From a virus (Duplodnaviria; Heunggongvirae; Uroviricota; Caudoviricetes), in IMG/VR virus record IMGVR_UViG_3300015181_000003, positions 1 to 43,728 of that record: DNA of 43,728 nt. The stretch is one strand, 5' to 3'. The notes beneath the pieces are model-generated. The model saw only the letters and a program-made list of their open reading frames with translations. It did not search any database and had not been told where the DNA came from. Of this stretch, positions 342 to 27,957 are shown in pieces. Positions within the stretch are counted from its first letter, which is position 1. Every line of letters starts with the position of its first letter. A program made the position numbers and the translations under genes.

Positions 342-449
342 TCTTTAATCCTTTGGTTAAGAGGTTACAGGTTAATGGTAAATGCGCCAGACGGGAACCA
401 CCCGCTTTTCGTGTGCGACACTAGGCGCAAAATTATTCTATCACATTAC

Positions 450-481
450 TTGCACACCCCAATATAATAGGGTACTATTCA
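450..481 (+). promoter_or_regulatory. conserved promoter/operator element (TTGCAC-N7-TATAAT-AGGGTACTATTCA) driving the 510..2097 module
   Basis: Perfect TATAAT at 463..468 about 40 nt upstream of ATG 510. Near-identical copies lie upstream of minus-strand operons at 22094..22125 and 20629..20660. Contains inverted repeat TAATAG-N4-CTATTC overlapping the -10. Confidence 0.45.
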
Positions 482-509
482 CTTACACCAACAATGAAGG
501 GGGTTTAAA

Positions 510-9782: not shown

Positions 9783-10100
9783 GTTTCTCCTTTCTCGATA
9801 AGTAAAGCCCCGCCTTAAAGCGGGGTGCTAGTCCTTATCATTTAAACATAGAAACGGCGTAATCTCAGTAAACCAGTTACTTTTTACACAAGCAATAGAC
9901 TATGGCCCTTCCGAACGCGTCAGCGTAACTACACTCAGGACTTACGTCCCGCTCCGTTACCTGCCCGCGCCGCGGTCGCTTGTTCATACTTCACAAGCTC
10001 AGGTGGAGCTTAGCATATTTTTAGTGAAAAGTCAACTATTCGAATAGTTTATTCCAACATTTACAATTCGGTGGAATAACTGGAATAATCACAGGCACTA

Positions 10101-10122
10101 AAAAGCCCCTTTCGGGGCTTCA
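10101..10122 (-). terminator. rho-independent terminator
   Basis: Stem AGCCCC / GGGGCT with loop TTTC, followed by a T5 run on the minus strand; directly after the gene ending at 10125. Confidence 0.6.
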
Positions 10123-10124
10123 GT

Positions 10125-20599: not shown

Positions 20600-20628
20600 C
20601 TTCAAATTCCTTATCCCGTTTGTGTAAA

Positions 20629-20660
20629 TGAATAGTAGCCTATTCTATCTTAGCGTGCAA
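20629..20660 (-). promoter_or_regulatory. conserved promoter/operator element (minus strand: TTGCAC-N7-TAGAAT-AGGCTACTATTCA)
   Basis: Third copy of the element found at 450..481 and 22094..22125; contains perfect inverted repeat GAATAG-N4-CTATTC; about 40 nt upstream of ATG 20599. Confidence 0.45.
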
Positions 20661-21658: not shown

Positions 21659-21877
21659 TCATGATTCGATGCCGTTGTGAATGATGCGGAAACAACATTG
21701 AAGAAAACTAACGGTTAAAGTCTCGTCCACAGTGTCCTCTAAATCCCATTCATCACCGTCTTCATCTAAAACGTATCGACGGCCGTCGTAATATACTCCT
21801 GACGAATATTTGTTACCTTTCACAAACCAATCCTGCACATCCTGGCTGGATCCAATACAAATTAATTCTTCCATCAC
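21659..21877 (-). CDS. hypothetical acidic protein (72 aa)
   Basis: Track ORF; start overlaps the upstream stop. Confidence 0.4.
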   Translation of the reverse strand: MMEELICIGSSQDVQDWFVKGNKYSSGVYYDGRRYVLDEDGDEWDLEDTVDETLTVSFLQCCFRIIHNGIES

Positions 21878-22062
21878 TTCGCCCCTTTGAATTTAAAATT
21901 GTTGCCGATGAGTTCTAAATATTCCGCGCTTACAGTTGCATGACCGCCAGTAAATACATTGCGAAGTTTACAAATAGAGGAACTGCCTCTGTTGTTGGTG
22001 GAAAATACGGAGTACAAACATCCCGACTTTTTACTACGGACCAACTGACCCTTCTTAAACAT
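21874..22062 (-). CDS. hypothetical protein (62 aa), first gene of the leftward early operon
   Basis: ATG at 22062 with GAGGG SD (track start 22071 is GTG); about 45 nt downstream of the conserved promoter element. Confidence 0.4.
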   Translation of the reverse strand: MFKKGQLVRSKKSGCLYSVFSTNNRGSSSICKLRNVFTGGHATVSAEYLELIGNNFKFKGAK

Positions 22063-22093
22063 AACCCTCACTCCTCTGTCCCGTTTCGATAAG

Positions 22094-22125
22094 TGAATAG
22101 TATCCTATTATATCGGGGTGTGCAA
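22094..22125 (-). promoter_or_regulatory. conserved promoter/operator element (minus strand: TTGCAC-N7-TATAAT-AGGATACTATTCA), leftward early promoter
   Basis: Perfect TATAAT on the minus strand at about 22112..22107; nearly identical to 450..481 (+) and 20629..20660 (-). Confidence 0.5.
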
Positions 22126-22197
22126 GAGAATAGTTACGTTGCCGTTGTGATTCTTCAGGCAGGGTTGTGCCTTTATTCTTATTACTTGGTAACTAAA

Positions 22198-22218
22198 GGG
22201 CAGGCCTTAAGCCTGCCC
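22198..22218. promoter_or_regulatory. perfect GC-rich hairpin/palindrome in the early control region
   Basis: GGGCAGGC-CTTAA-GCCTGCCC, 8-bp perfect stem. Confidence 0.35.
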
Positions 22219-22505
22219 AATAATCGTTACATTTTTACGGTTGCGAATCTACGGCATTTTAAGAAAATCAGATACTTAAGATATATGCTGCCGATGAGAA
22301 TAGAGCTTGCCCAGGGCAACCGGAGATACTTAGGAAGGAAAGTTACGATAATTCTCATGTTCAGTAAACTTTCGCTTAACACTTTGCTTGCGCTGCGCGC
22401 AGCTGCGTTTTAAGCGGTTTTACAAGGTGAACAGGAATCAAAGTAACTAAGATATAGAAGCACCTTAAACGAAGATTTTCATAATGTCAATAGGTGCAAT
22501 TATGT

Positions 22506-22534
22506 TTGATTTCCCATTATTCGCAATGTATACT
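22506..22534 (+). promoter_or_regulatory. candidate rightward early promoter (TTGATT-17-TATACT)
   Basis: -35-like TTGATT, 17-nt spacer, -10-like TATACT about 33 nt upstream of ATG 22567 with GAGGG SD. Confidence 0.4.
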
Positions 22535-22566
22535 TGGTTTCGTTAACTGATAATGAGGGCTTTGGA

Positions 22567-22737
22567 ATGACACAGAATGAAGTGGCAGAGCGTATCGGGG
22601 TTACCCGTCGCACGCTGAATAACTGGTTAAAGAGCGGGAAGTTCCCGGATTGTTGTATTCGCATTATGGGTCGTCGTCAGCCAGGTACATTTGACCCGGA
22701 GAAAGTGGAAGCGTGGATTAAGGAGAACGTAAAATGA
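22567..22737 (+). CDS. HTH DNA-binding protein (AlpA/excisionase-like small regulator)
   Basis: 56 aa from ATG 22567 (track start 22534 is TTG and overlaps the promoter); motif VAERIGVTRRTLNNWLKSGKFP. Confidence 0.55.
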   Translation: MTQNEVAERIGVTRRTLNNWLKSGKFPDCCIRIMGRRQPGTFDPEKVEAWIKENVK

Positions 22738-22967
22738 CCGAGTTCCAGTCACGCGTATTTACGGCGGTCGTTTCGCTAACACGTAAAAAAGGGTCGTGCA
22801 GCGTTATCGACTTGCGCCGTAGTTATTTTAAGTACTATAGTTCCGCCATTATTGAAGGGTCGTTGAAGGTGCTGGTTAAATCCGGTGTCGTGAAAAATGT
22901 TGGTGGGAAATATAGCGCCGTTGCAGAAGTTCGCGGAATGACCGCTACTTTAGAAGACCTGGAATAA
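22734..22967 (+). CDS. hypothetical protein (77 aa)
   Basis: ATG overlaps the upstream stop (ATGA). Confidence 0.45.
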   Translation: MTEFQSRVFTAVVSLTRKKGSCSVIDLRRSYFKYYSSAIIEGSLKVLVKSGVVKNVGGKYSAVAEVRGMTATLEDLE

Positions 22968-23025
22968 AAGAAAGCCCCGACGCGGTGAACGCCGAGGCCA
23001 AATTACTTGCTGAAGGAAATACAAC

Positions 23026-25266
23026 ATGTCCGATGTAATTTTATCCTACTCGTGGTCTCGTCGCAACGCGCGGGCGGAGAAAAAGGATATAAACGTCAGA
23101 ACCACACACACGGCAACACTGGACGACCTGAAAGAGTTAATCCGGCCGCTCGATGCTGTTCGTGACGGGATTAACCCCAAGACCGCGCCGGGGTATATCA
23201 CTGCCGCGTGTGACTCTACACACAGCACCGTAAAAGACCTGGAAACCGGTGACTTTAAGCAAGCGCGCAAAGGCTTCTTCTACCGCTGTGACGCGTCCGT
23301 AAGCAAATCATCGCTGGCGTACCTGGACTTTGACAGCGCAACGCCGGAAGAGTACCAGGAAGCGGTGCGCCTGGTTAAGCGCAGCCGCCTGGCTATGTGC
23401 CTCTACACCACGGCATCACATACTGACGAGTCACCGCGCTTTCGCGTAGTCATGCCGCTGGCCCGCCCGGTCGAAGGCGGTGACATCATTCGAGTTCGTC
23501 ACGGATTGCTGGAGCACTTCTTCAAAGGCATGGGCGCTGACCGCAGCGGGTTTACGCTGTCCCAGCCTATGTACCTGCCGCCGGTTGGCTCTCAGGTTAT
23601 CTGGTCGCGTCGCAACGACCTGATCGACCCGGACGAGTTACTGGAAGGCACCCCCGCCGTTGACGTTAGCAGCGCATCGGATTACCAGATACCTGAAGAA
23701 CTGCGCACCGCGTTTACTGATGCGTTCGAGGCACTGGCGTTTGAGTACGGCGGCATCATGACGCCCCGCGGCCTTAAGATGCCAGCTACACCAGAACACG
23801 CAGAAAACTACAGCGACCCGACGCCTCGCCCGGACGACTTCCTGTTGTGTTTTCCGCGCGAGGGATATGAAGCGCCGAACGTAACCATGATTCACGACAC
23901 CGACATTACGGCAACTGAAGGCATGTCTCCGAAAGAGGTGTGGAAGTATGCGTGCGACGCGACCGGGCTGCCGTTCAGTGAAGTGGCAGAGGCCATAGGT
24001 TGGGGTGCGCGTGAATCCGTTTCATGCAGCCTCGACGACCTGGAAGACGAGGATGACTCAGAGGAGTACGAGCTACCGGAACCTGTAAAGGCTGATTTCG
24101 TCGTAGAAGGGTATATGCCGTCGGATTGTATATGGGATATCGTCGGGGAGTCGGGCACATACAAATCGTTCTATACTCTGGGGATGATGTACCTTAGCGC
24201 CGCCGGATACCGGTTCGCCGGGGCGGACACCCAGCGTTGCCATCACTTCTATATCGACGGTGAGGGGGGTGCTGCTACACGTACACGTATTGACGCACTC
24301 GCGGCTAAATACGGCGAGGAAGGTAAAGATTATGTACACGTCATCGATATGGGCGAAGTCGGCAAACTGAAGAGCCTGATTAAGTTAATGCGCGAAACTG
24401 CTGGCGACGAGCCGATCGGCATGGTTGCGTTCGACACCCTTAACCAGACCCTGGCCCTGACGATTGATAAATTCGACGAGAACAGTTCATCGACGGCGAT
24501 TGGCATGGGTAAAGTTATCGCCATTCTGAAAGAAGTACGCGACGCAACTAAAGCCGCGGTAGGCGTTGTTCACCACACACCGAAAGGTGGAAAGAAAGCC
24601 CGTGGCAGCGGGGCACTGTATGCGGGTGTCGACGTGGAGCTAACAATTGAACGTGCGACCGACCGCCAGATAAACGTATACCACTCTAAATTTAAGCACG
24701 GGCCGCAACAGAAGACGGTTGGTATGGTGCTGGAGTCTGTACAGTTCCGTGAAGCCCCGCCGCCGAAAGAGTACCGTGCGGTTGAGTTCCTGGGTAACAC
24801 AGAGGAATACGGCACAATCATAAACCTCGACCTGCCGGAGCCGCATAAGGCACTTGTACTGATGCCGTGGGGCTTTGAGCCGTTTAAGACTGACGAGGAG
24901 AAAGAGCGGGAAGAAGGGCTGACAAAGGAAGGTAAAGAAAACGTAAAGAACGCTGTAAAACGTGGAAAGGATGAAGGGCGTAAGGAATCAATACTTGCCG
25001 CGCTGGAAGACCTGCAACAGTCAGACGACACCGGACTAGGTTTTACACAACGGCAGATAGTGGCGAATTCGGGCGACCACGCCATAACCAACCATCATCT
25101 CGAGAAGATGCTGAAAGACGGTGAGTTGATGCTTGGATGTGATATTAACGGTGAAGTTATACCTGGTACCTACCGGATACCAGAAAAGATGGGTGACAGA
25201 TTAAGGCCGAAGACAATATACGAACCGAATGAAATGCTAACAGTGACAGAGGAGGATTTGGAATAG
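23026..25266 (+). CDS. putative DNA primase/helicase (N-terminal primase-like region, central P-loop ATPase, Lys/Glu-rich tail)
   Basis: 746 aa. DxD-containing N-terminal region (LAYLDFDSA); Walker A-like GESGTYKS and hhhhD-like MVAFDT. Family assignment is by motif recall only. Confidence 0.5.
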   Translation: MSDVILSYSWSRRNARAEKKDINVRTTHTATLDDLKELIRPLDAVRDGINPKTAPGYITAACDSTHSTVKDLETGDFKQARKGFFYRCDASVSKSSLAYLDFDSATPEEYQEAVRLVKRSRLAMCLYTTASHTDESPRFRVVMPLARPVEGGDIIRVRHGLLEHFFKGMGADRSGFTLSQPMYLPPVGSQVIWSRRNDLIDPDELLEGTPAVDVSSASDYQIPEELRTAFTDAFEALAFEYGGIMTPRGLKMPATPEHAENYSDPTPRPDDFLLCFPREGYEAPNVTMIHDTDITATEGMSPKEVWKYACDATGLPFSEVAEAIGWGARESVSCSLDDLEDEDDSEEYELPEPVKADFVVEGYMPSDCIWDIVGESGTYKSFYTLGMMYLSAAGYRFAGADTQRCHHFYIDGEGGAATRTRIDALAAKYGEEGKDYVHVIDMGEVGKLKSLIKLMRETAGDEPIGMVAFDTLNQTLALTIDKFDENSSSTAIGMGKVIAILKEVRDATKAAVGVVHHTPKGGKKARGSGALYAGVDVELTIERATDRQINVYHSKFKHGPQQKTVGMVLESVQFREAPPPKEYRAVEFLGNTEEYGTIINLDLPEPHKALVLMPWGFEPFKTDEEKEREEGLTKEGKENVKNAVKRGKDEGRKESILAALEDLQQSDDTGLGFTQRQIVANSGDHAITNHHLEKMLKDGELMLGCDINGEVIPGTYRIPEKMGDRLRPKTIYEPNEMLTVTEEDLE

Positions 25267-25269
25267 GTA

Positions 25270-25295
25270 AAAAGAAAGGGGCGTTAAGCCCCTTC
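25270..25295 (-). terminator. terminator hairpin between convergent genes
   Basis: Stem AAGGGGC / GCCCCTT with loop GTTAA; U-rich on the minus-strand side. Confidence 0.45.
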
Positions 25296-25499
25296 ACCTA
25301 ATGCCAGCCACTTGGCGTCTACTTGCAGCACTTCCGCCAGTTTAAACAGCGTCGCCGGGCGGACGTCCTGAGTTACCCCAAGCGCAAGCTGGTTAATTGC
25401 GCCCTGGGAAACGCCAGCCAGGACCGCCAGACGGCGCTGGGAGATGCCGAGTTCTTTACGGCGTTGTTCTACACGGATGCCTAGTTCAGATGGTTGCAT
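25284..25499 (-). CDS. XRE-family (Cro/CI-type) HTH transcriptional regulator
   Basis: 71 aa with HTH ISQRRLAVLAGVSQGAINQL; AAGGAG SD; transcribed divergently from the 25625 operon across an operator-bearing region. Confidence 0.7.
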   Translation of the reverse strand: MQPSELGIRVEQRRKELGISQRRLAVLAGVSQGAINQLALGVTQDVRPATLFKLAEVLQVDAKWLALGEGA

Positions 25500-27928: not shown

Positions 27929-27957
27929 TTGACACCTGAATAGTTAGCTATTATAGT
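27929..27957 (+). promoter_or_regulatory. sigma70-like promoter with embedded operator
   Basis: TTGACA at 27929..27934, 17-nt spacer containing GAATAG-N4-CTATTA, TATAGT at 27952..27957. Confidence 0.5.

What the first reader, a model, noticed from the sequence alone, without database searches (positions are those of the whole stretch)
22126..22533. Long structured leader in the divergent early control region
About 400 nt between the leftward promoter element and the first rightward gene contain no convincing ORF but several exact palindromes: GGGCAGGC-CTTAA-GCCTGCCC (22198..22218), TTGCCC-A-GGGCAA (about 22308..22320), GCTGCGCGCAGC (about 22391..22402) nested in a longer imperfect hairpin followed by U-rich sequence, and a direct repeat GATACTTA(A/G)G. 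This suggests attenuation or antitermination control, or a small RNA.
Basis: seen in the sequence. Interest (0 to 1): 0.4.

Follow-up and report, generated by a model that had tools for sequence, protein, structure and literature searches.

The report
Conserved leftward noncoding RNA cassette

Summary
The palindromes, the direct repeat and the lack of a real ORF are all confirmed, within one base of the stated coordinates. The window is a Kagunavirus (Guernseyvirinae). The region is homologous in about 300 Kagunavirus and Jerseyvirus genomes. Parts of it are 84-92% identical between the two genera, against 64-70% for flanking genes.

It is not a leader of the first rightward gene. The invariant promoter P_R (22506-22534) lies downstream of the region, and no plus-strand promoter in it scores above background.

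The best promoter and the best terminator are both on the minus strand:
- TTGACA-17-TAAGGT (22490..22462) sits back-to-back with P_R.
- Hairpin 22218..22198 followed by TTTAGTT is the best terminator.

Between them lie a 108-nt extended stem-loop (22448..22341) and a sequence-conserved unpaired core. The stem-loop keeps its pairing through compensatory changes and at least five apex replacements.

I read this as a leftward non-coding transcription unit of about 263 nt: a small RNA and/or a terminated upstream leader of the leftward early operon (confidence 0.45). The main rival is a DNA-level replication-origin or control element (0.25).

Other phages carry unrelated cassettes with the same layout at this position. 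One of those has a paralog at window 9893-10035.

No expression data exist. Interest is moderate.

The parts
22097..22125 (-). P_L, promoter of the leftward early operon: TTGCAC (22125..22120), 17-nt spacer, TACTAT (22102..22097). It sits inside a roughly 37-nt conserved motif.
   Evidence: The same extended motif, CTTGCAC..ATA.AATAGG.TACTATTCA.TTA, precedes an RBS and start codon at three sites in the window (464, 20629, 22094). It matches the repeated 'phage promoter' consensus reported for fBC-Eco01 (PMC9825357).
22126..22197 (.). Highly conserved block between P_L and hairpin A. Its function is unknown. It may be a DNA site controlling P_L, a recombination linker, or read-through RNA.
   Evidence: The block 22126-22260 is 84-92% identical between Kagunavirus and Jerseyvirus. 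All module types share 22063-22155.
22191..22218 (-). Hairpin A plus U-tract. On the minus strand it reads GGGCAGGCU-UAA-GGCCUGCCC then UUUAGUU. It is the candidate intrinsic terminator of the non-coding unit.
   Evidence: Flagged by the terminator scan. Stem energy is -17.1 kcal/mol and d = +14.4, the highest of the 11 hairpin/strand cases compared; on the plus strand d = -33. Variants are compensatory: C-G to U-A, and whole-stem replacements GGGTGGGC/GCCCACCC and GGTGCC/GGCACC.
22219..22340 (-). Sequence-conserved, mostly unpaired core. It contains the direct repeat (22271-22280 and 22325-22334), the small palindrome 22307-22319, a CU-rich stretch (UUUCCUUCCU on the minus strand) and one IHF-consensus match (22266-22278).
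   Evidence: The sub-block 22261-22346 is 85-87% identical between genera, with indels that break any reading frame. The small palindrome is not kept as a helix in Jerseyvirus.
22341..22448 (-). 108-nt extended stem-loop. The base is AGUUAC/GUAACU, followed by four further helices. The apex is 22373-22416 and includes the palindrome 22392-22403.
   Evidence: The same architecture is the minimum-free-energy fold of the minus strand in all 30 variants. All 449 stem cells counted are paired, with covarying pairs AU/GU/GC and GC/AU/UA. There is a compensatory indel: UGUUCA/UGAACA against UGUUUCA/UGAAAC. Five unrelated apex classes all fold at -15 to -26 kcal/mol.
22462..22490 (-). P_nc, the candidate sigma-70 promoter of the non-coding unit: TTGACA (22490..22485), 17-nt spacer, TAAGGT (22467..22462). 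The predicted start is near 22455.
   Evidence: It is the best minus-strand site in 22040-22600 (12.05 bits), about 5th-6th among the per-tile best scores of 156 genome tiles. The hexamers and the 17-nt spacer length are invariant in 31 sequences, while about half of the spacer bases differ. Equivalent minus-strand promoters occur in the unrelated modules: TTGACT-17-TAAGCT and TTGAAA-18-TATAAT. The fBC-Eco01 record annotates a host promoter, then a terminator, then the P_L motif on this strand.
22506..22534 (+). P_R, promoter of the rightward operon (HTH regulator, 77-aa protein, helicase-primase): TTGATT-17-TATACT.
   Evidence: It is the top plus-strand site (12.4 bits) and is invariant in the alignments. 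It falls where the PVP-SE2 record annotates a promoter, 22-70 nt upstream of the HTH gene.
22567..22737 (+). First rightward gene, a 56-aa HTH_17 / excisionase-like DNA-binding protein. Included for context.
   Evidence: Pfam HTH_17 at 2e-7 and phrog_66.

Best explanation
The region is a self-contained, non-coding transcription unit read leftward, on the minus strand.

Proposed sequence of events:
1. Host sigma-70 RNA polymerase starts at P_nc (TTGACA-17-TAAGGT, 22490..22462; start near 22455). P_nc sits back-to-back with the rightward promoter P_R.
2. The first roughly 110 nt of the transcript fold into one long imperfect stem-loop (22448..22341).
3. A sequence-conserved, largely unpaired core follows (22340..22219).
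4. Most transcripts stop at the GC-rich hairpin 22218..22198 with its UUUAGUU tail, giving an RNA of about 263 nt.
5. Transcripts that read through enter P_L and the leftward early genes, so the same RNA also acts as a terminated upstream leader of that operon.

I infer that the conserved core is the working part. It would bind a protein or pair with a host RNA. The long hairpin would give stability or a processing site.

What is shown in silico: the promoter and terminator signals, the non-coding status, and conservation of structure. What is inferred: that the RNA is expressed, where its ends lie, and what it does.
For: 1. P_R is fixed at 22506-22534, so the region is not its leader.
2. The strongest promoter-like site on the minus strand lies exactly at the right edge. 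Its hexamers and 17-nt spacing are invariant while the spacer sequence is free to vary, which is the signature of a promoter.
3. The best intrinsic-terminator score among the 11 hairpin/strand cases compared is hairpin A on the minus strand (d = +14.4, against -33 on the plus strand).
4. The long hairpin begins about 7 nt after the predicted start. It is maintained by covariation, a compensatory indel and at least five apex replacements.
5. The shared architecture is 1-5 kcal/mol more stable on the minus strand than its mirror on the plus strand in all 30 variants. About six G.U sites are seen against one A.C mismatch on the minus strand.
6. There is no conserved ORF.
7. The conserved blocks 22126-22346 are more conserved between genera than the neighbouring genes, while the long hairpin and promoter segments are not.
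8. Unrelated modules at the same position in other Kagunaviruses share parts of this layout. All have a minus-strand promoter, GC-rich hairpins and P_L downstream. However, the type III/L027 hairpins lack a U-tract on either strand.
9. One of those modules has an 80%-identical paralog in this window at 9893-10035. That copy has its own minus-strand promoter, and a terminator at 9825..9808, ahead of the scaffold and major-head genes.
10. The deposited fBC-Eco01 annotation independently predicts host promoter, then terminator, then P_L on this strand.
Against: - There are no transcript data of any kind, and no literature on this region.
- The -10 hexamer matches the consensus at only 3 of 6 positions.
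- The U-tract is interrupted (UUUAGUU).
- The equivalent hairpins in the type III/L027 modules have no U-tract on either strand.
- The 72 nt beyond the terminator (22126-22197) are as conserved as the RNA itself. A simple small-RNA model does not explain this.
- The base of the long hairpin (AGTTAC/GTAACT) never varies, so it could equally be a pair of protein-binding sites.
- No complementary target beyond chance was found in the phage genome.
- There is no Rfam match.
- The strand-asymmetry evidence is modest and partly biased by the folding procedure.
Confidence: 0.45

Rival explanations
1. DNA-level element: the replication origin and/or a nucleoprotein control region. The hairpins would act as single-stranded DNA structures that serve as priming or loading signals for the adjacent helicase-primase, as with the ssiA/ssiB hairpins of RSF1010. 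The repeats would be protein-binding sites, and flanking transcription would activate the origin, as at the T7 primary origin or T4 oriF.
For: - The region lies directly upstream of the replication module: an AAA_25 helicase-primase, a Gp2.5-like SSB and an exonuclease.
- The cumulative GC skew reaches its minimum near 22000.
- GC content is lowest (32-36%) at 22400-22550.
- AGTWAC occurs four times in 320 bp, against about 0.6 expected from the genome-wide density.
- There are imperfect direct repeats and one IHF-consensus match.
- Sequence-level conservation exceeds that of the genes and extends outside the putative RNA.
- Compensatory hairpin changes fit single-stranded DNA as well as RNA.
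- In Jerseyvirus an extra hairpin has the opposite strand polarity.
Against: - There is no array of three or more iterons and no cluster of DnaA boxes.
- The GC-skew switch coincides with the switch in transcription direction, so it is uninformative.
- AGTWAC is over-represented genome-wide (79 against 43 expected).
- The alternative module at this position has a paralog in the head-gene region. That is odd for an origin and natural for a promoter/RNA cassette.
- The promoter and terminator signals are oriented coherently on one strand.
Confidence: 0.25
2. No dedicated function. The region would be a patchwork of promoters, insulating terminators and conserved 'linker' sequences that serve as recombination joints between exchangeable modules. 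The hairpins would be ordinary terminators or stabilisers.
For: - Modules are clearly swapped at fixed joints: all types share 22063-22155 and the P_R/HTH side.
- Hairpin apexes are replaced freely.
- The small downstream gene is swapped along with the module.
Against: - Blocks that are 85-92% identical across genera whose genes are 64-70% identical indicate purifying selection on long stretches, not only at joints.
- The long hairpin keeps five stacked helices through covariation. That is more than a terminator needs, and it is not followed by a U-tract.
Confidence: 0.15
3. One reading: a long plus-strand leader of the rightward HTH/replication operon, controlled by attenuation or antitermination at the palindromes.
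For: - The hairpin at 22373-22416 is followed by GTTTTAC on the plus strand.
- The palindromic P_L motif contains a plus-strand TATTAT hexamer (6.2 bits).
Against: - P_R is a far better promoter, is invariant, and lies downstream of all the palindromes.
- No plus-strand promoter upstream scores above background.
- Plus-strand terminator scores are negative (-33 and -44).
- The shared hairpin architecture is more stable on the minus strand in all 30 variants; whole-hairpin plus-strand folds are equal or better in many Jerseyvirus variants but use a different, non-shared structure.
Confidence: 0.05
4. It encodes a small protein: the 106-aa GTG ORF annotated in Bas73, the 51-aa minus-strand ORF, or the 18-aa peptide starting at 22357.
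For: An ORF is annotated in Bas73 and in Kenya-K2.
Against: - The frames are broken by stops and indels even within Kagunavirus.
- One relative has no open stretch of 30 codons or more.
- There is no family match.
- The ATG at 22357 is absent in Jerseyvirus.
Confidence: 0.02

Closest known systems
Lambda late leader: P_R' promoter, 6S RNA, t_R' terminator (from my own knowledge of lambda)
   Same: A sigma-70 promoter makes a roughly 200-nt non-coding RNA that ends at an intrinsic terminator immediately upstream of co-oriented genes. Read-through of that terminator would feed the operon. The second cassette in this window (10043..9808) sits ahead of the head genes in the same way.
   Different: No Q-like antiterminator or qut-type element was found. 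Here a second promoter (P_L) lies between the terminator and the genes. The region is early, not late.
HK022 putL/putR RNAs, cis-acting and factor-independent antitermination elements (from my own knowledge)
   Same: A structured RNA begins a few nucleotides after the promoter and is followed by a terminator. Paralogous copies serve two operons in some relatives: the type III control-region module and the 9.9-kb copy.
   Different: put consists of two short stem-loops of about 70 nt in total. Here there is one 108-nt hairpin plus a long unpaired core. There is no sequence similarity and no experimental link to RNA polymerase. A structural comparison with put was not tested.
Phage control-region small RNAs: lambda oop, P22 sar, P1 c4, P4 CI RNA (from my own knowledge)
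   Same: A short non-coding RNA is made from the early control region, with its own promoter and terminator.
   Different: Those RNAs are antisense to, or complementary with, phage transcripts. No complementarity beyond chance was found here, and nothing is encoded on the opposite strand. This phage is virulent. There is no Rfam hit, even at E <= 10.
Plasmid and phage origins with priming hairpins or transcript priming: RSF1010 oriV ssiA/ssiB, ColE1 RNA II, T7 primary origin (from my own knowledge)
   Same: A non-coding region next to a helicase-primase gene, with GC-rich hairpins, flanking promoters and an AT-rich stretch.
   Different: No iteron array or DnaA boxes were found. All signals are coherent on one strand. 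A paralog of the sister module lies among the head genes.
T7 early-mRNA RNase III sites and the RNase III hairpin of the lambda N leader (from my own knowledge)
   Same: A long imperfect hairpin with internal loops lies in an early transcript upstream of the first gene.
   Different: Cleavage is untested. At 108 nt this hairpin is about twice as long, and its apex is hypervariable.

Membership tests
Any curated RNA family (Rfam 15) | Covariance-model score at or above the family's gathering threshold | tested here: not met
   There are no hits in the whole window at gathering thresholds. The best sub-threshold hit in 22000-22650 is Hrs12 at 21.7 bits against a threshold of 70, E = 0.52.
Stand-alone bacterial/phage small RNA gene | Own promoter on the RNA strand | tested here: met
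   TTGACA-17-TAAGGT scores 12.05 bits. The hexamers and spacing are invariant in 31 sequences. This is in silico only; promoter activity cannot be tested here.
Stand-alone bacterial/phage small RNA gene | Intrinsic terminator at the 3' end on the same strand | tested here: met
   A 9-bp GC stem (-17.1 kcal/mol) followed by UUUAGUU gives d = +14.4. The U-tract is interrupted. The equivalents in the type III/L027 modules lack a U-tract.
Stand-alone bacterial/phage small RNA gene | No conserved reading frame | tested here: met
   The frames are not conserved and there are no family hits.
Stand-alone bacterial/phage small RNA gene | A detectable transcript with defined ends | not testable with these tools
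   No RNA data are available and no publication was found.
Structured RNA (conserved secondary structure) | Base pairs maintained by compensatory change | tested here: met
   The lower stems are 100% paired. Two pairs show three pair types each, and the covariation score is 0.101 against 0.055 in shuffles. There is a compensatory indel. Five apex classes all form stems. Hairpin A has variants. Eleven of the 15 lower-stem pairs counted never vary, so they are uninformative.
   The best plus-strand candidate inside the region scores 6.9 bits, below the genome tile median of 7.3. P_R, at 12.4 bits, lies downstream of the structures.
   d = -33 for hairpin A and -44 for the 22373-22416 hairpin on the plus strand.
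Iteron-type replication origin | An array of three or more direct repeats of about 17-22 bp, an AT-rich unwinding element, and DnaA/IHF sites | tested here: inconclusive
   Only two-copy repeats of 8-14 nt were found. AGTWAC occurs four times. There is no DnaA-box cluster. There is one IHF-consensus match. A 32-36% GC stretch overlaps the promoters.
Iteron-type replication origin | Replication initiates here | not testable with these tools
   The GC-skew minimum at about 22000 is confounded by the switch in transcription direction.
Lambda-type Q/qut or N/nut antitermination | A phage antiterminator protein and its RNA or DNA site | tested here: not met
   No Q/N-like family was found among 26 early and neighbouring proteins scanned. 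A boxA-like GCUCUAUU is not conserved in Jerseyvirus. Many of the early proteins have unknown function, so absence is not proven.

The most novel reading that the evidence does not exclude
Guernseyvirinae would carry exchangeable 'promoter + structured RNA + terminator' cassettes that act in cis on RNA polymerase or on replication, without a dedicated protein. One possibility is put-like RNAs that make host polymerase read through the terminator into the early-left and head operons. The other is a ColE1 RNA II / T7-style primer transcript that fires the origin for the phage's T7-like replisome. In some relatives the control-region cassette is a paralog of the head-operon cassette, which would mean one RNA mechanism is reused at two operons.
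Probability: 0.12. Interest if true: 0.7.

Novelty: new member of a known kind. Interest (0 to 1): 0.45.

Why it matters
Jerseyvirus and Kagunavirus phages are among the most frequently isolated Salmonella and E. coli phages used for biocontrol and therapy, yet I found nothing published on how their gene expression or replication is controlled.

This region is among the best-conserved stretches near the early genes. Annotation pipelines mislabel it as a hypothetical protein or leave it blank.

If it makes an RNA, that would be a new phage non-coding RNA with a clear experimental handle: a defined promoter, a hairpin, a core and a terminator, plus natural module swaps. If it is the origin, that would define where a T7-like replisome starts in a phage that lacks its own RNA polymerase.

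Either result also corrects the map of the early control region. It has three promoters (P_L, P_nc, P_R), not two.

Tried and rejected
- Rfam, at gathering thresholds and at E <= 10: nothing meaningful.
- Coding potential: the annotated 106-aa ORF, the 51-aa minus-strand ORF and the 18-aa hydrophobic peptide at 22357 are all rejected, because none is conserved.
- boxA/boxB (nut-like) reading of UUGCCCUGGGCAA-GCUCUAUU: rejected, because neither the helix nor GCUCU is kept in Jerseyvirus.
- GATACTTA(A/G)G as -10 elements of plus-strand promoters: no -35 at usable spacing.
- P4 alpha-type iteron: GGTGAACA matches TGTTCACC, but it is a single copy and is not conserved. Treated as coincidence.
- Base-pairing targets of the minus-strand RNA in the phage genome: the longest run is 16 including G.U, within the shuffle range of 13-19. 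A slower duplex-energy scan timed out.
- Host or plasmid origin of the sequence: no match in 5,426 E. coli genomes. The only plasmid-collection hit is a 44-kb record matching just the first 30 nt.
- Coupling between module type and the downstream small protein: type I always comes with the phrog_5169 protein. However, the HTH allele and the P_R type co-segregate too, and type III occurs with two different proteins. Plain linkage therefore explains the pattern.
- Sequence search of the helicase-primase against PDB for a RepB'-like primase: no hit.
A longer pattern in viral contigs returned only contigs already held.
- Literature: four of the six searches targeted transcription or origin mapping in this subfamily and found nothing; one returned only an in-silico promoter/terminator prediction (fBC-Eco01) and one (phage blauehaus) was unrelated.

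Full report
**What the window is.** Region 21800-23100 is 92-96% identical to Kagunavirus genomes such as Bas73, K1ind1 and EF2-1. The finding lies in the 504-nt gap between two sets of genes. On one side is the first leftward early gene (ATG at 22062; a GTG ORF reaches 22071). On the other is a 56-aa HTH_17/excisionase-like gene (ATG 22567). That gene is followed by a 77-aa protein (phrog_5169) and a 746-aa AAA_25 helicase-primase.

**Checking the observation.**
- All three palindromes and the direct repeat are present, at or within one base of the stated coordinates.
- The third palindrome is the tip of a hairpin at 22373-22416. That hairpin is itself the apex of a 108-nt imperfect inverted repeat, 22341-22448.
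- Hairpin density is above chance: 7 terminator-like sites against 1.7 expected.
- Both strands fold better than shuffled sequence: z = -4.2 for the minus strand and -2.9 for the plus strand.
- The 106-codon frame that Bas73 annotates as a gene is broken in close relatives and has no family match.

**Conservation.**
- The intergenic sequence has homologs in 448 phage records. Of these, 299 cover at least 80% of it, all in Kagunavirus and Jerseyvirus.
- Against Jerseyviruses, 22126-22260 is 84-92% identical and 22261-22346 is 85-87% identical.
- For comparison, the 77-aa gene is 70% identical and the helicase-primase gene 64%.
- The long hairpin (64-70%) and the promoter stretch (74-76%) are less conserved in sequence.
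- The sequence does not occur in E. coli chromosomes or plasmids.
- It matches no Rfam family.

**Where the promoters are.**
- *P_R.* TTGATT-17-TATACT at 22506-22534 is the top plus-strand site (12.4 bits). It is invariant even in phages whose intergenic module is otherwise unrelated. The PVP-SE2 record annotates a promoter at the equivalent position, 22-70 nt upstream of its HTH gene.
- *P_L.* On the minus strand, TTGCAC-17-TACTAT (22125..22097) is embedded in a roughly 37-nt motif. That motif recurs ahead of genes at 464 and 20629. It matches the repeated 'phage promoter' consensus described for fBC-Eco01 (PMC9825357).
- *Consequence.* The finding's interval lies between these two divergent promoters. 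It is not downstream of either.
- *Plus strand.* No plus-strand site inside the interval scores above the genomic background.
- *P_nc.* The best minus-strand site is TTGACA-17-TAAGGT at 22490..22462, at 12.05 bits. It ranks about 5th-6th among the per-tile best scores of 156 tiles of the genome. Across 31 distinct sequences from both genera, the -35 hexamer, T1/A2/A3/G4/T6 of the -10 hexamer, and the 17-nt spacing are all invariant. About half of the spacer bases differ. I call this promoter P_nc. It sits back-to-back with P_R, with 15 bp between the two -35 hexamers.

**Structure.**
- *Position and shape.* The long hairpin begins about 7 nt after the predicted start (near 22455). On the minus strand the same five-helix architecture is the minimum-free-energy fold in every variant.
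- *Lower helices.* All 449 cells counted are paired. Two pairs covary: AU/GU/GC and GC/AU/UA. The covariation score exceeds all 500 shuffles. Eleven of the 15 pairs counted never vary, so they carry no information.
- *Compensatory insertion.* Helix 3 reads UGUUCA/UGAACA in Kagunavirus and UGUUUCA/UGAAAC in Jerseyvirus.
- *Apex.* It exists in five unrelated sequence classes, all folding at -15 to -26 kcal/mol.
- *Hairpin A (22198-22218).* It shows a C-G to U-A exchange. In other modules it is replaced by GGGTGGGC/GCCCACCC or GGTGCC/GGCACC.
- *Small palindrome 22307-22319.* It is conserved as sequence but not as a helix.

**Which strand.**
- The shared architecture is 1-5 kcal/mol more stable on the minus strand than its mirror image in all 30 variants.
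- The apex is more stable on the minus strand in 14 of 18 variants.
- About six G.U sites are seen on the minus strand against one A.C mismatch.
- This is suggestive, not decisive.
- Hairpin A is a terminator only on the minus strand: d = +14.4, the best of the 11 hairpin/strand cases compared in this window, against -33 on the plus strand. Its interrupted U-tract resembles those of the phage's other terminators.
- The deposited fBC-Eco01 annotation independently lists a host promoter, a terminator and the P_L motif in this order on this strand.

**Modules.**
- About two thirds of Kagunaviruses carry other sequences between 22155 or 22280 and P_R.
- These unrelated modules also contain a minus-strand promoter (TTGACT-17-TAAGCT or TTGAAA-18-TATAAT) and GC-rich hairpins with compensatory variation, ahead of P_L. 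In the type III/L027 modules those hairpins lack a U-tract on either strand.
- One of them (type III) is 80% identical to window 9893-10035. That is an intergenic element with its own TTGACT-17-TAAGCT promoter.
- On the minus strand this element is followed by the terminator at 9825..9808 and then by a 128-aa gene, the scaffold gene and the major-head gene.
- The element is 95-99% identical in 179 records of both genera.
- Portable promoter-plus-structured-RNA cassettes fit this pattern better than origins do.

**Interpretation.**
- I favour a leftward non-coding unit of about 263 nt (P_nc, long hairpin, conserved core, terminator). It would act as a small RNA and/or as a terminated upstream leader of the early-left operon. 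My confidence is 0.45.
- What is shown: the sequence signals, the non-coding status and the conservation of structure.
- What is inferred: expression, transcript ends and function.

**Weak points.**
- The -10 hexamer matches the consensus at only 3 of 6 positions.
- 22126-22197, which would lie outside the RNA, is just as conserved as the RNA itself.
- The hairpin base never varies.
- No target was found in the phage genome.
- The hairpins equivalent to hairpin A in the type III/L027 modules have no U-tract on either strand.

**Rivals.**
- *Origin or nucleoprotein element (0.25).* In its favour: it adjoins a T7-like replication module; it sits at the GC-skew minimum; AGTWAC is enriched locally; and there is an IHF-consensus match. 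Against it: there is no iteron array and no DnaA boxes, and the skew signal is confounded by the switch in transcription direction.
- *No dedicated function*, just a patchwork of promoters, terminators and recombination linkers (0.15).
- *A coding explanation* (0.02).

**Novelty.** I found no publication on transcription, small RNAs or the origin in this subfamily. If real, this would be a new member of the class of phage control-region non-coding RNAs or terminated leader RNAs.

Noticed in passing
window 9783-10124: A second non-coding element lies between the Hoc-like head-decoration gene and a 128-aa gene followed by the scaffold and major-head genes. On the minus strand it has a promoter TTGACT-17-TAAGCT (about 10043..10015), GC-rich hairpins and the terminator at 9825..9808. 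It is 95-99% identical in 179 phage records of both genera. Its stretch 9893-10035 is 80% identical to the alternative control-region module of SCS44-type Kagunaviruses.
   Followed up: partly
window 449-485, 20610-20650, 22090-22126, 27937-27954: A long conserved promoter motif, CTTGCAC..ATA.AATAGG.TACTATTCA.TTA, occurs at three sites followed by an RBS and start codon. A fourth, weaker match at 27937 lacks the -35 hexamer. The core AATAG-N5-CTATT is palindromic, which suggests that a regulator binds these promoters.
   Followed up: partly
window 22973-22999 (minus strand): A strong minus-strand terminator-like hairpin (d = +10.4) lies inside the rightward operon, between the 77-aa gene and the helicase-primase gene. 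It would stop leftward (antisense) transcription before it reaches P_R.
   Followed up: no
window 25284-25499 (minus strand): A lone leftward 71-aa Cro/CI-type HTH gene sits immediately after the rightward helicase-primase gene. This is unexpected in a virulent phage.
   Followed up: no
L004 530-565, L005, L009 (Jerseyvirus loci): Jerseyviruses have an extra block between P_L and block 1. It contains the hairpin GCGCTTGCC-G(T/C)AA-GGCAAGTGC. The GNRA-type loop and the G.U pair exist only on the plus strand, which is the opposite polarity to the long hairpin.
   Followed up: no
L011 and L031, about 1290-1330 (SCS44-type module): A (GAGT)n microsatellite of variable length, 3 to 6 or more units, lies next to the GGTGCC-GAA-GGCACC hairpin in the alternative module.
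   Followed up: no
L002 2259-2401 (phage EF2-1): EF2-1 has about 140 nt inserted between P_R and the HTH gene. The insert starts with ATG and may be an unannotated small gene.
   Followed up: no
window 22734-22967 and L010, L011: The gene after the HTH regulator is replaced by unrelated proteins (77, 77 or 96 aa) in step with the intergenic module and the P_R type. The HTH protein itself stays 79-100% identical.
   Followed up: yes
plasmid collection record CP088689.1: A 44-kb 'plasmid' from an E. coli blood isolate matches the first 30 nt of the region. It is the only hit in the plasmid collection.
   Followed up: no
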